From contig OX597833.1 of assembly GCA_951406725.2 (NCBI GenBank), forward strand, positions 56,730,001 through 56,794,000: a DNA stretch of 64,000 bases, written 5' to 3'. A program made the translations under genes and the position numbers. The notes under the pieces are model-generated. The model saw nothing but the letters and a program-made list of their open reading frames with translations, was not told where the DNA came from and did not search any database. The stretch is from Octopus vulgaris (lineage: Eukaryota). This document shows, one piece after another, positions 4,325 to 44,519 of the stretch. Every line of letters begins with the position of its first letter. Within the stretch, counting starts at the first letter, position 1.

Positions 4325-4680
4325 TCATCATCATCATCATCATCATATAGCGTCCGCTTTCCATGCTAGCATGGGTTGGACGGTTCAACTGGGGTCTGGG
4401 AAGCCAGAAGGCTGCACCAGGCCCAGTCTAATCTGGCAATGTTTCTACGGCTGGACACCAGCCACTCCGTGAGTGTAGTGGGTGCTTTTTACGTGCCACC
4501 TGCACAGGTGCCAGGCGAGGCTGGCAACGGCCACGATTGGATGGTGCTTTTTACGTGCCACCGGCATGGGGGCCAGGCGAGGCTGGCAACAGCCACATTC
4601 AGATGGTTCGCTTACGTGCCACCGGCACTGGTATCACAGCTACAATTTTCATTGATGTTGATCGATTTCGATTTTGATTC
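4325..4680 (-). mobile_element. RTE-tailed SINE-like element (family C) with internal GGTGGCACGTAAAAAGCACC repeats
   Basis: (CAT)n followed by CGTCCGCTTTCCATGCTAGCATGGGTTGGACGG; homologous to 14170-14537. Confidence 0.85.
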
Positions 4681-11387: not shown

Positions 11388-11620
11388 GTTCTTTACTACC
11401 CACAAGGGGCTAAACACAGAGAGGACAAACAAGGACAGACAAACGGAGTAAGTCGATTATACCGACCCCAGTGCGTAACTGGTACTTATTTAATCGACCC
11501 CGAAAGGATGAAAGGCAAAGTCGACCTCAGCAGAATTTGAACTCAGAACGTAGCGGCAGACGGAATACCGCTAAGCATTTCGCCCGGTGTGCTAACGATT
11601 CTACCAGCTCGCCGCCTTAT
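11388..11620 (-). mobile_element. SINE family B, full length
   Basis: 17-bp TSD CATTGATGAATATCCTA at 11371-11387 and 11622-11638. Confidence 0.93.
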
Positions 11621-11647
11621 TCATTGATGAATATCCTATAAACATAT

Positions 11648-12052
11648 AGGCACAGGCATGGTTGTGTGGTTAGAAAATTTCTTCCTAACCACGTGGTTCT
11701 AGTTTCAATCCCACTGTGTGGCACCTTGGGCAAGTACTGCCTACTATAACCCTGAGCTGACAAAAGCATTGTTTATTTGATAGACAGAAACTAGTGTATG
11801 TATGTGTGTGTGGGAGAGAGTTTCTCCTTTCTGGCTGAAAGTAAATGAGTATCACTATCCCCACACAAGCAATGTTGTTCATTTCTAATATTCTGCAAGA
11901 ATGTATCTAGCCATGGAGAGATATCACCTTGCTTGGAAACGGATGAGGGAACAAGAAGGACATCCAGCTGTAGAAGATTTACCTCAAATAAAGTCAACTA
12001 GCCCATGCAAGCAAGGAAAAGTGGATGTTGAATGATGAAGATGATGACGATG
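11648..12052 (+). mobile_element. Chimeric SINE: family-A tRNA/CORE head with family-C (RTE-type) tail
   Basis: Head GGCACAGGCATGGTTGTGTGGTTAG..GGCACCTTGGGCAAGT; tail GAAGGACATCCAGCTGTAGAA..CCCATGCAAGCAAGGAAAAGTGGATGTTGAATGATG. Confidence 0.8.
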
Positions 12053-14174: not shown

Positions 14175-14538
14175 AATCGATCAACATCAATGGAAATTGC
14201 AGCTGTGATACCAGTGCCGGTGGCATGTAAGAGAACCATCCGATCGTGGCCGTTGCCAGCACCGCCCCGACTGGCCTCGTGCCGGTGGCACGTAAAAAGC
14301 ACCATCCGTTCGTGGCCGTTTGCCAGCCTCGTCTGGCATTTGTGCCGGTGTCACGTAAAAAGCACCCACTACACTCACAGAGTGGTTGGCGTTAGGAAGG
14401 GCATCCAGCCGTAGAAACATTGCCAGATCAGACAGGGCCTGGTGCAGCCTTCTGGCTTCTCAGACCCCAGTTGAACCGTCCAACCCATGCTAGCATGGAA
14501 AGCTGATGCTAAACAATGATGATGATGATGATGATGAT
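14170..14538 (+). mobile_element. Family C element with 3 internal ~60-bp units
   Basis: GTGCCGGTGKCAYGTAA repeated 3x, GGCGTTAGGAAGGGCATCCAGCCGTAGAAAC, (GAT)n tail. Confidence 0.88.
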
Positions 14539-16294: not shown

Positions 16295-16302
16295 ATGCAT
16301 GC

Positions 16303-16566
16303 ATTGTTGTTTGTTCCTTTTTGAGCCATGCCTGGCTCATAAGAGCCGGTTTCCTGGTTTCATTGGCGTATAGGTTCCCCACCTGGACGGGACGCCTGTA
16401 GTTGTGGCGAAAGAGTCGGCAGAAGTTTCGCCATTACCTTCTGCCAGAGTCGCGTGGAGCTTAGGTGTTTCGCTCATAAACACACACATCGCCCGGTCTA
16501 AGATTCGAACCCGCGATCCCTCGACCGCGAGTCCGCTGCTCTAACCACTAGGCCATGTGCCTCCAC
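16303..16566 (-). mobile_element. tRNA-derived SINE (family E) with V-domain-like 3' part
   Basis: Minus strand GGCACATGGCCTAGTGGTTAGAGC..GGGTTCGAATC; 3' GGCGTCCCGTCCAGGTG..GAAACCAGGAAACCGG. Confidence 0.8.
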
Positions 16567-29384: not shown

Positions 29385-29614
29385 CACATGTCATTCTGAG
29401 TAAAAGATAGATGGTCTCAGCTGGAATACTTTTGATAATAGCTCTGTTTGATCAGGCATAGTCTGGGATTAAACAAGAACAACAAAGATGAGATGGAATC
29501 CAGAAGCAGAAATTAGACATTTAATGAACAGATGAGATGAACTTAACCAATGTTAAAAAGATGTGAGTCAGAATTCAACCAAAGTTGATGTTCATCTTAC
29601 TAGAAACCAGAACT

Positions 29615-29980
29615 TTAAAGGGTTGTTATTTTACTTTTTCTGGGCATCTGCCCATCCAAGAGGAATTACAACCATGTTTCGTGGTCTGCTACCACAACAG
29701 CTCCTTTATAGGATCCAGTTAGCTCAAGACATCATCAGGAGGAACCACATCCGGTTTCGGCCCCTACTCCTCTACCGTTTTGACGTGGTGTGCCCCCCCC
29801 CCCTTTCGGAGGTGTCTTCAGCTCTGGTGTTGGGTGCATGTCTTCTTTCTTCTGTTCCCTGGCCTCTTCGATGTATTGTCAGCGAGTGTCAGCCGGTGAC
29901 TTGACTGTCTTGTCAAATTTTTCCCTTTAAATACCTAAATATAGGCTCCAGCAGGCAGCCCCAGCAAGTTGTCACGTGAC
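29615..29980 (-). mobile_element. GC-rich element with several hammerhead-like core motifs (Penelope/retrozyme-like)
   Basis: Minus strand has CTGAAGA (29815-21), CTGATGA (29732-38), GAAAC (29754-58, 29676-80), GTA-GAGGAG pairing with TTCCTC, and hairpin GTGGT-AGCAG-ACCAC. Confidence 0.5.
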
Positions 29981-30439
29981 ACTACTGCTACTGCCACAAC
30001 TACAACCACTACAGCCATTGCCACTATGCCTGCTACTGCTGCTGCTACTACGACTACTATATTGGACAAGTGAACTGAAATCAATTATGAGTCAATGTAG
30101 TAAGGAAGATGCTGGCTTCATAGATTGATTTTTTTAACATTGGCACATGGAGAACATTTGGGAGAAAGTGTAATCAGTTAAATAAGCCCCATTACATGAC
30201 TTGATACCACAATTTCTCTGGCTCAAGGTCAATAATTTGGGTGATAGATTAAAAATTAAAACGACATAGTAACAATATATTTTGAAACCACAAATAAACG
30301 ATATTTGCTAACTTTTTCGATAAAACCAAATCTTCAAGTTCTGACAATAGGCAAGGGTTAATAAGATATATAATGCAAAGAAGATTGACTGCAGAACCAA
30401 TTAACTATTTAGTGTGTGTGTGTGTCTGTGTGTGCGTGT

Positions 30440-44049: not shown

Positions 44050-44270
44050 GTAATTGCGATAACAAGTATCCCTTATATCCTGTTTCATCATCAGTGTTCT
44101 AAGTGCATCACCAATCACAGCATCACTGGTCCTCCAACAGGATTTTGACCATGTTTTTGGAAGAACTCTATGGTTTATCATCTCATACATTGGGTTTCCA
44201 GCTGATAGCTTGGTCAACATGCCAATCTGGATGTTTCAGACAGTGTCCATCAGGCTGTAGCTGGGCTTCT
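44050..44270 (-). mobile_element. Diverged LINE C-terminal fragment of the same clade
   Basis: Minus strand LQPDGHCLKHPD..QAISWKP..ILLED..ALRTLMMKQDI. Confidence 0.55.
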
Positions 44271-44286
44271 TGCTATCTATTTAATT

Positions 44287-44519
44287 AAGGTGGCGAGCTG
44301 GCAAAAATGTTAGGACGCCGGGCGAAATGCATAGCCGTATTTCGTCTGCCGTAACGTTCTGAGTTCAAATTCTGCCGAGGTCGACTTTGCCTTTCATCCT
44401 TTTGGGGTCGATTAAATAAGTACCAGTTACGCACTGGGGTCGATGTAATCGACTTAATCCATTTGTCTGTCCTTGTTTGTCCCCTCTGTGTTTAGCCCCT
44501 TGTGGGTAGTAAAGAAATA
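44287..44519 (+). mobile_element. SINE family B, full length
   Basis: Matches the reverse complement of 3176-3408 and 11388-11620. Confidence 0.93.

What the first reader, a model, noticed from the sequence alone, without database searches (positions are those of the whole stretch)
29660..29830. Multi-core hammerhead-like cluster with alternative or permuted pairings
The minus strand reads CCAGAG-CTGAAGA..ACCAC-GTC-AAAA-CG-GTA-GAGGAGT-AGGGGCC-GAAACCG-GATGTG-GTTCCTC-CTGATGA-TGTCTT..GTGGT-AGCAG-ACCAC-GAAAC-ATGGT. Seen: two CUGANGA, two GAAAC and two GUH triplets. GAGGAGU pairs with GUUCCUC right before CUGAUGA (stem I), CGGU pairs with the ACCG of GAAACCG, and ACCAC-GU pairs with the AC-AUGGU of GAAACAUGGU with one mismatch. 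No single canonical type I/II/III fold uses all parts. Inference: a nested, strand-swapped or pseudoknotted HHR, or decayed tandem HHRs.
Basis: partly seen in the sequence, partly recalled or inferred. Interest (0 to 1): 0.7.

Follow-up and report, generated by a model that had tools for sequence, protein, structure and literature searches.

The report
Rewired hammerhead ribozyme of Naiad retroelements
This stretch is one partly damaged copy of a very abundant animal repeat that carries every catalytic base of the self-cutting hammerhead RNA in a rearranged, knotted order, and the same layout or close versions of it sit behind the gene of many Naiad jumping genes that were reported to lack a normal hammerhead, so it is likely their missing ribozyme, although cutting is untested.

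Summary
All listed motifs are present, but they form one hammerhead, not a mixed cluster. Order on the minus strand: clamp helix P0, hairpin, stem II 5' arm, stem I/II interaction arm, stem III + GUA site + stem I, stem II' + GAAA + stem III', stem I' + CUGAUGA, P0. This is the non-circular CSG/SGC order of Eckert 2023, but opened between A9 and G10.1, a link that paper treats as unbreakable. Seven independent loci pair 96 of 98 stem I-III positions with compensatory changes; the two misses are in this copy's stem II. Shuffles: 0 of 20,000. Of 8 loci fetched by Naiad RT protein alone, 5 carry such a ribozyme behind the ORF: 2 split, 2 intact CSG, 1 CSG with two hairpins inserted at A9/G10.1, a likely intermediate. 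By eye, at least 16 of 54 published Naiad consensus sequences carry one, though Craig 2021 reports no canonical hammerhead in Naiads. Untested: cleavage, and linkage of this particular family to a Naiad ORF. The second GAAAC belongs to a relic type I hammerhead predicted to be dead.

The parts
29658..29983 (-). One copy of a very abundant dispersed repeat (3' end / pseudo-LTR-like piece of a retroelement; family runs on beyond 29983)
   Evidence: summed depth about 1e4-1e6 inside vs 57 in flank (X1, X5); 6266/6254/3195/126 contigs laid in four runs; loose ends pile at 29660/29661, 29901/29902 and 29983
29813..29832 (-).
   Evidence: pair probability 0.76-1.0 for the 14 pairs scored; P0 28 of 30 pairs in 5 loci, 0.48 when arms are swapped
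29799..29812 (-). Hairpin P0a between P0 and stem II (5 bp, GAAA loop)
   Evidence: p about 0.9; a hairpin at this place in relatives
29790..29795 (-). Stem II 5' arm (G10.1 = 29795); 2 of 6 pairs broken in this copy
   Evidence: family letters at 29793 and 29791 that pair are in 18-44% and 17-63% of depth
29782..29789 (-).
   Evidence: p 0.98-1.0; 36 of 40 pairs in 5 loci; family letter at 29749 turns a G-U into G-C in 83-97% of depth
29773..29777 (-). Stem III 5' arm and GUA triplet; predicted cut between 29773 and 29772
   Evidence: (p 0.93-0.98); cut site inferred from hammerhead rules
29768..29772 (-). Stem I arm after the site (5 Watson-Crick pairs, extendable to 7)
29759..29764 (-). Stem II 3' arm (C11.1 = 29759)
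29752..29758 (-). G12-A13-A14-A15.1 and stem III 3' arm
29744..29751 (-). 3' arm of the interaction helix, continuous with stem I'
29739..29743 (-). Stem I' arm
29732..29738 (-). C3-A9 core strand CUGAUGA; chain leaves the core after A9 into P0
29715..29731 (-). 3' arm of clamp helix P0 (a further 5 bp at 29699-29695)
29658..29706 (-). Relic canonical type I hammerhead: stem II hairpin 29695-29681, GAAAC 29680-29676, 3-bp stem III, GUA 29669-29667, possible stem I offset by 4 nt; core 5' strand reads CUGUU, so predicted inactive
   Evidence: half-hammerhead in 17 of 20,000 tail shuffles, but 1.23 per shuffled 64-kb window; layout like type I rows of File S2 in PMC8557442

Best explanation
The stretch holds one complete set of hammerhead core bases and helices in a non-circular (pseudoknotted) order with the chain opened between A9 and G10.1, and it is likely the self-cleaving 3'-end ribozyme of a Naiad-type Penelope-like retroelement family, here in a copy whose stem II is damaged. 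Shown: the order P0 / hairpin P0a / stem II 5' arm / interaction arm / stem III-GUA-stem I / stem II'-GAAA-stem III' / interaction arm'-stem I'-CUGAUGA / P0, its conservation with changed but paired letters in other animals' elements, and its position 3' of Naiad GIY-YIG-RT ORFs in relatives. Inferred: P0, P0a, the interaction helix and stem III fold first as a nested scaffold; stems I and II close across it as pseudoknots; P0 and P0a would stack on each other as a four-way junction, so A9 and G10.1 lie side by side without a direct link; G12 and G8 would then act as in any hammerhead and cut 3' of GUA (29773/29772), giving 2',3'-cyclic phosphate and 5'-OH ends. Both catalytic strands lie downstream of the site, so cutting could only follow transcription of about 45-60 more bases. 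Inferred role: cutting unit-length element RNA out of read-through or tandem transcripts for reverse transcription, as proposed for other Penelope-like elements. Inferred origin: type CSG gained two hairpins at A9/G10.1 (the state seen in L548), and a circular permutation within tandem copies then opened the first hairpin's loop.
For:: 7 independent split-form loci, 96 of 98 stem I-III pairs; identity is the best of 5040 arm permutations; both-side changes in stem I (1 column), stem II (3), stem III (3), including an AUU site with GAAAU; core C3-A9 and G12-A15.1 intact in 7 of 7; helices not set by the search pattern pair 0.85-0.93 with their own arm and 0.34-0.75 with swapped arms. Prospective test: of 8 loci fetched by RT protein alone, the unchanged descriptor hits L543 and L544 (0 of 2400 shuffled loci); L546 and L547 hold intact type CSG; L548 holds CSG with a 30-nt two-hairpin insert at A9/G10.1 (CSG descriptor: 2 of 2400 shuffles). 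N-terminal GIY-YIG in 4 of 6 ORFs scanned, DKA motif in 7 of 8 loci. L065's motif follows a UCH ORF whose full-length relatives are GIY-YIG-RT(DKA)-UCH. By eye in File S5 of PMC8557442: split form in 9 and intact CSG in 7 of 54 Naiad families; the closest match to the window is about 70 nt behind the ORF of Naiad_Plae. Family variation: no variant row at core bases or stem I arms 29772-68/29743-39 among the 40 of 56 rows shown; changes at 29749, 29789 and 29753 keep pairing. SGC and CSG ribozymes with the same four helices cleave in vitro (PMC10085705).
Against: No cleavage data; contigs cannot show RNA ends, and the one 'RNA' run laid is a guess by the tool. This family is not tied directly to a Naiad ORF: no ORF remnant in the window (tblastn with 8 proteins, best E 0.89), and 6 of 6 family words are absent from the Craig supplement. 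The octopus Naiads there have the same layout with other letters. This copy is likely impaired: stem II has 4 of 6 pairs, and its long G run pairs with stem I'/C3-U4 in the nested minimum-energy fold, also after putting in four family letters. Part of the family seems to have a shorter stem II arm (29791/29792 variants, up to 35-36% in X1), and depth at 29789-29800 is a small share of neighbouring depth, so these fractions are weak; phase is seen in one loose end only. A G>A change at 29748 (minus strand) breaks an interaction pair in 44% of X1 depth. Stem I is nearly invariant among the in-session loci because the first search fixed it, and four of the seven loci were picked partly on stem III. 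3 of 8 RT-selected loci show no such motif (L545, L549; L550 has no 3' tail). For an Anolis element, hammerhead mutants did not reduce insertion in vitro and no reads ended at the site (PMC11167929 passages).
Confidence: 0.8

Rival explanations
1. A hammerhead-derived fold kept for another job (binding site for the element's RT/endonuclease, 3'-end protection), with little or no self-cleavage.
For: Low in vitro activity of metazoan PLE hammerheads (PMC4209133); cleavage not needed for insertion in vitro in one element; L543 has an AUU triplet; the window copy's nested fold hides part of the core.
Against: All catalytic bases are kept in 7 of 7 split loci while helices change, with matched changes at 15.2/16.2; intact CSG forms that match a tested cleaving layout sit at the same place in sister elements.
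Confidence: 0.12
2. An ordinary type-SGC hammerhead, with stem II made by the bases right after CUGAUGA.
For: The S, G, C blocks are in this order; 5 of 6 or 4 of 6 pairs can be drawn in this copy, mostly G-U.
Against: Each register has a U-C mismatch at 10.1 or 10.2. Those bases pair with P0 at p 0.76-1.0. In L543 no contiguous stem II forms (0 pairs) while the upstream arm gives 6. The upstream arm covaries with the G-block arm.
Confidence: 0.04
3. Two or more decayed canonical minimal type I hammerheads in tandem that work, or worked, as dimers.
For: Two CUGAnGA and two GAAAC; the 3' tail does look like a relic type I; PLE minimal hammerheads are common in animals.
Against: The first CUGAAGA has no GAAA partner or stem I and is not kept in relatives (listing); the middle blocks pair completely in the knotted order; the tail lacks A6 and G8/A9.
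Confidence: 0.03
4. Chance coincidence of short words in a G-rich stretch.
For: Short motifs; descriptor made after the fact; 2 of 417 word-matched controls pass loosely.
Against: 0 of 20,000 and 0 in 200 window shuffles; prospective hits behind Naiad ORFs.
Confidence: 0.01

Closest known systems
Type-SGC and type-CSG non-circularly permuted hammerheads (Eckert et al. 2023, PMC10085705; main text parts 1-6 of 8 read, supplement passages)
   Same: [quoted passage not shown]
   Different: Block C is split: CUGAnGA is at the 3' end and its stem II arm at the 5' end, bridged by P0 and P0a. The paper assumes no insertion of more than 1-2 nt there and lists six possible types. It found SGC only in metatranscriptomes and CSG in 2 unique metagenome sequences, none in genomes of known organisms; here the host is an animal genome and the carrier a retroelement.
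Hammerheads of Penelope-like elements and non-LTR retrozymes (Cervera and de la Pena 2014, PMC4209133, parts 1-2 of 4 read; bioRxiv 10.64898/2026.07.22.740005, part 1 of 5 and passages)
   Same: Near the 3' end / pseudo-LTR of a Penelope-like element; high copy number; tolerance of an extra base between positions 9 and 10.1.
   Different: Those are nested type I motifs, mostly with a tiny stem III that needs dimers; this one is pseudoknotted with a full stem III and would work as a monomer.
Naiad clade of Penelope-like elements (Craig et al. 2021, PMC8557442; passages of main text, File S1 sheet, part 12 and passages of File S5)
   Same: Relatives of the motif lie 3' of GIY-YIG-CxC-DKA-RT ORFs; the paper notes 'HHR_core' and 'HHR_half_core' words without a fitting fold.
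   Different: The paper reports no canonical hammerhead in Naiads and did not describe a permuted fold; this window's family is not among its consensus sequences by 6 words tested.

Membership tests
Hammerhead ribozyme (structural class) | Core C3-U4-G5-A6-N7-G8-A9, G12-A13-A14, A15.1-U16.1, H17 | tested here: met
   7 of 7 loci
Hammerhead ribozyme (structural class) | Stems I, II and III abut the core (1.1-2.1, G10.1-C11.1, 15.1-16.1 paired) | tested here: met
   96 of 98 pairs; this copy lacks pairs 10.3 and 10.5
Hammerhead ribozyme (structural class) | Site-specific self-cleavage 3' of NUH | not testable with these tools
   contigs only
Hammerhead types I, II, III (circular permutations) | Nested three-way junction, blocks in order CGS, GSC or SCG | tested here: not met
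   order is S-G-C with crossing stems; no Rfam match
Type-SGC hammerhead (Eckert 2023) | 5'-3' order S, G, CUGAnGA | tested here: met
Type-SGC hammerhead (Eckert 2023) | Helix joining the far ends of stems I and II | tested here: met
Type-SGC hammerhead (Eckert 2023) | Unbroken block C (stem II arm within 1-2 nt of CUGAnGA) | tested here: not met
   stem II arm lies 57-87 nt upstream of C3 in 7 loci (spacings); contiguous register is mismatched
Naiad PLE (this window's family) | ORF with N-terminal GIY-YIG, CxC, DKA, RT upstream in the same element | tested here: inconclusive
   no remnant in the window; copy ends at 29983 while the family runs on; no genome held
Naiad PLE (carriers of the motif elsewhere) | ORF with N-terminal GIY-YIG, CxC, DKA, RT upstream of the motif | tested here: met
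   L544, L546, L547, L548; L543 has DKA-RT-UCH with its N-terminus cut off
Naiad PLE (this window's family) | Pseudo-LTR / partial tandem arrangement, 30-40 bp tail | not tested
   single copy in the window; L070 has two motif copies 450 nt apart
Non-LTR retrozyme | Tandem 150-450 nt units each with a type I hammerhead | tested here: not met
   single dispersed copy, many different 3' flanks; fold is not type I

The most novel reading that the evidence does not exclude
Non-circularly permuted hammerheads are the normal 3'-end ribozyme of a large part of the Naiad clade across cnidarians, nematodes, spiders, crustaceans, acanthocephalans and cephalopods, and this locus shows a seventh natural wiring: the catalytic CUGAnGA block is split at A9/G10.1 and held by a four-way junction, reached from type CSG through the two-hairpin intermediate seen in L548. 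Animal retroelements would then be the main genomic home of the rearranged hammerheads so far known only from environmental sequence.
Probability: 0.7. Interest if true: 0.92.

Novelty: new variant of a known kind. Interest (0 to 1): 0.85.

Why it matters
It would explain why Naiads, among the most abundant invertebrate retroelements, seemed to lack the hammerhead found in other Penelope-like elements: descriptors for nested folds cannot see it. It gives the non-circular hammerheads a biological carrier and many copies for covariation work. It breaks the stated assumption that the CUGAnGA block cannot be interrupted and offers a concrete evolutionary route between wirings, with an intermediate in hand. 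It points to A9/G10.1 as a site that tolerates whole helices, useful for structure work and RNA switch design. All of it can be tested with one co-transcriptional cleavage gel.

Tried and rejected
No genome is held for the window, so no direct paralogue alignment; blastn finds no second copy in the window. Rfam: 0 matches at gathering score in the window, 3 weak snoRNA matches in 29400-30100, only a SECIS in 11 related loci. First viral scan: 7 of 7 hits chance. Four more viral scans (417 loci): no convincing member, used as controls. Prokaryote genome scan with the family pattern: 0. Metagenome scan covered 34 of 64 parts and gave 118 loci; 4 loci (5 motifs) were kept, the rest fail the descriptor. 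RT searches in viral contigs: none. Longer homologues of the L065 ORF by word search: none, later found by full HMMER scan. MAFFT misaligns the 5' arms, so helices were anchored by coordinates in scripts and no covariance model or R-scape-type test was made. Rejected readings: contiguous stem II; GUC 29782 as a site (no stem I); CUGAAGA as a second core; ACCAC/AUGGU pairing; a C-terminal coding role for 29830-29983 (no protein match). My first idea (decayed tandem minimal hammerheads, 55%) was dropped. Weinberg 2015, cited for hammerheads with additional helices, is not held; Lunse 2017 was not read.

Full report
Setting. The window is AT-rich, full of microsatellites and without long ORFs, as expected for a large animal genome. 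From recall only, some of its repeats look like octopus SINEs; this was not tested. No genome is held. Laying four public runs on 29440-30060 shows that about 29660-29983 is a very abundant dispersed repeat: summed depth is 57 in the flank and about 1e4-1e6 inside (X1, X5), 6266, 6254, 3195 and 126 contigs were laid, and loose ends pile up at 29660/29661 (the 3' end on the minus strand, with unrelated AT-rich flanks) and at 29901 and 29983. The tool warns that depth is no copy number. 20 of 24 listed runs hold the stretch or part of it, under four organism labels plus two metagenome labels.

Observation. The region folds well (z -3.5) and has no Rfam match.

Finding the fold. That is type SGC of Eckert et al. 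2023 (PMC10085705), but stem II was poor when made from the bases after CUGAUGA. A metagenome scan with a pattern that fixed only GUAGAGG, GAAAC and CCUCCUGA (118 loci, 34 of 64 parts scanned) gave four loci, L022, L039, L065 and L070 (two tandem copies), that also had a full core, CC before GAAAC and 3-7 unspecified extra stem III pairs (126 pattern matches in 125 loci scored). In all of them the partner of the arm before GAAA lies upstream of the cleavage site, and the bases after CUGAnGA pair with a region further upstream. The order is: P0 5' arm, hairpin P0a, stem II 5' arm, interaction arm, linker, stem III + NUH + stem I, 2-4 nt, stem II' + GAAA + stem III', interaction arm' + stem I' + CUGAnGA, P0 3' arm. 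In the window P0, P0a, the interaction helix and stem III form together in the nested fold at probabilities of 0.76-1.0; stems I and II cross them and cannot be scored by that program.

Tests against chance. A descriptor for this layout hits the window once, 0 of 20,000 element shuffles and 0 times in 200 shuffled windows. It was written after the fact, so two further controls were run. Among 417 viral loci picked for having the core words in this order, 2 pass at minimum thresholds. Helix arms pair with their own partner at 0.85-0.93 and with another locus's partner at 0.34-0.75 (5 loci; one tandem copy left out). With seven loci, stems I-III pair at 96 of 98 positions, the best of 5040 permutations, with changes on both sides in all three stems. 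Four of these seven were picked partly on stem III and with stem I fixed by the pattern, and the upstream stem II register was chosen as best fit, so these numbers lean upward.

This copy. The two unpaired positions are in the window's stem II (29793, 29791). Family letters that pair there are seen in 18-44% and 17-63% of depth across the four runs, on a thinly covered stretch; another share of contigs seems to have a shorter arm. No variant row touches the core or stem I among the 40 of 56 rows shown; changes at 29749 (83-97%), 29789 (71-73%) and 29753 (5-19%) keep pairing, one at 29748 (0-44%) breaks a pair. The copy's 11-G run can pair with stem I' and the start of the core. I put the chance that this copy cleaves well at about 0.3, the intact family at about 0.8 (judgement).

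The carrier. Craig et al. 2021 (PMC8557442) report that Naiad elements lack canonical hammerheads but note unexplained core words. Reading passages of their consensus file by eye (not the whole file, and family names partly assigned from the next header or the position in the file), I found the split layout in 9 of 54 families (three Acropora, one of them damaged; one Clytia; Naiad-2_Movir; Naiad_Plae; one crustacean; Naiad_Obim; Naiad_Ovul), including AUC, AUA and UUC sites matched by GAAAU or GAAAA, and an intact type CSG in 7 (two Pristionchus, three Nippostrongylus, one other nematode, one spider). It was not seen in the shown 3' ends of Omin, Adux or Dcar; Esco and Bfor are doubtful; no bivalve example turned up. 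The Naiad_Plae motif is very close to the window's and lies about 70 nt behind the ORF. In session, L065's motif follows a UCH ORF whose full-length relatives are GIY-YIG-RT(DKA)-UCH proteins. Using these proteins as the only query gave 8 loci (AT-rich contigs filed in prokaryote assemblies, likely eukaryote DNA). Behind the ORF, L543 and L544 carry the split form by the unchanged descriptor (0 of 2400 shuffled loci), L546 and L547 an intact CSG, and L548 a CSG with two hairpins between A9 and G10.1 (CSG descriptor 2 of 2400 shuffles); L545 and L549 show none in 363 and 445 nt of tail and L550 has no tail. Four of six ORFs scanned have an N-terminal GIY-YIG. The first hairpin of L548 has the same stem letters as P0 in L543 and Naiad_Plae; opening its loop and moving the front module to the back gives the window's layout. 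For the window's own family the link to a Naiad ORF is inferred, not shown.

The extra words. CUGAAGA lies in the P0 5' arm and is absent at that place in six relatives (listing). GUC 29782 lies in the interaction helix. The tail 29706-29658 has a 5-bp hairpin before GAAAC, a 3-bp stem III, a GUA and a possible offset stem I, like the type I rows of File S2; such a half motif occurs in 17 of 20,000 tail shuffles but 1.23 times per shuffled window. Its 5' core strand reads CUGUU, so it is predicted dead. Its last bases can also pair with the stem I arm and might switch the active fold off in full-length RNA; this is speculation.

Mechanism. Shown: anatomy, conservation, position. Inferred from established hammerhead chemistry: cleavage 3' of GUA by G12 and G8. 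Inferred geometry: P0 and P0a stack as a four-way junction that keeps A9 next to G10.1; one extra base there is common in PLE hammerheads. Inferred role: release of unit-length RNA from tandem or read-through transcripts, as proposed for other PLEs; against a strict need, an Anolis element inserted in vitro without cleavage.

Novelty. Searches of the held library: 'non-circular permutation' + hammerhead, hammerhead + permut + Naiad (47), type IV / additional helix (58), type-CSG or type-SGC (77, only Eckert 2023), Naiad + ribozyme + Penelope since 2022 (78), 'permuted hammerhead' + retrotransposon (79, none), stem IV + G10.1 (90, none), extra helix (95), hammerhead + octopus (14) and Penelope-like + tandem (15). 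None of the listings or passages seen describes a hammerhead opened at A9/G10.1 or a permuted hammerhead in Naiads. Passages only were seen for PMC13725137, PMC10162972, PMC11167929, PMC6155905, PMC6765202 and PMC3088659. Subscription papers, Weinberg 2015 (not held) and figures or bioRxiv supplements that I could not see may bear on this. Earlier AI notes of this scan mention a phage hammerhead opened at the same link, rearranged hammerheads in two Penelope-like elements, and twisters in clam Naiads; these are unchecked leads, and the last suggests that not all Naiads use a hammerhead.

Verdict. Real feature, new wiring of a known ribozyme class, with a strong and testable link to Naiad retroelements. 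Interest 0.85.

Noticed in passing
L065:3-752, L543:1-2640; proteins P0025, P0084, P0040, P0100: Naiad-type ORFs (GIY-YIG, DKA, RT) with a C-terminal ubiquitin hydrolase domain (PF00443); 'ubiquitin' and 'UCH' have 0 hits in the main text of PMC8557442.
   Followed up: partly
L548:4940-5032: Type-CSG hammerhead with two hairpins (30 nt) inserted between A9 and G10.1; likely intermediate between CSG and the split form.
   Followed up: partly
L546:5159-5219, L547:4371-4424: Intact type-CSG hammerheads behind Naiad ORFs; Eckert 2023 had only 2 unique CSG sequences.
   Followed up: partly
L549:1060-1123: SECIS element (RF00031, 39.3 bits, above gathering score) at the end of a Naiad-like RT ORF; fits the selenoprotein Naiads.
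   Followed up: no
L070:1-1120: Tandem units of about 450 nt, each with the split hammerhead: a retrozyme-like array with a non-type-I ribozyme.
   Followed up: partly
L543-L550: Penelope-like elements on AT-rich contigs inside prokaryote genome assemblies, likely eukaryote contamination.
   Followed up: no
window 29658-29706 (-): Relic type I hammerhead at the element's 3' end; its last bases repeat the stem I' arm and could compete for stem I.
   Followed up: partly
window 4481-4628, 14214-14366: 62-63 nt repeat units in opposite orientation, SINE-like; recalled as resembling octopus SINEs, not tested.
   Followed up: no
window 16300-16560 (-), 11530-11670 (-), 44230-44380 (+): tRNA-head-like SINE copies with GAAAC/GAAAT words but no hammerhead fold (no descriptor hit).
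   Followed up: no
window 29985-30060: The copy's 5' end abuts an imperfect trinucleotide run; Naiads are reported to favour microsatellites.
   Followed up: no
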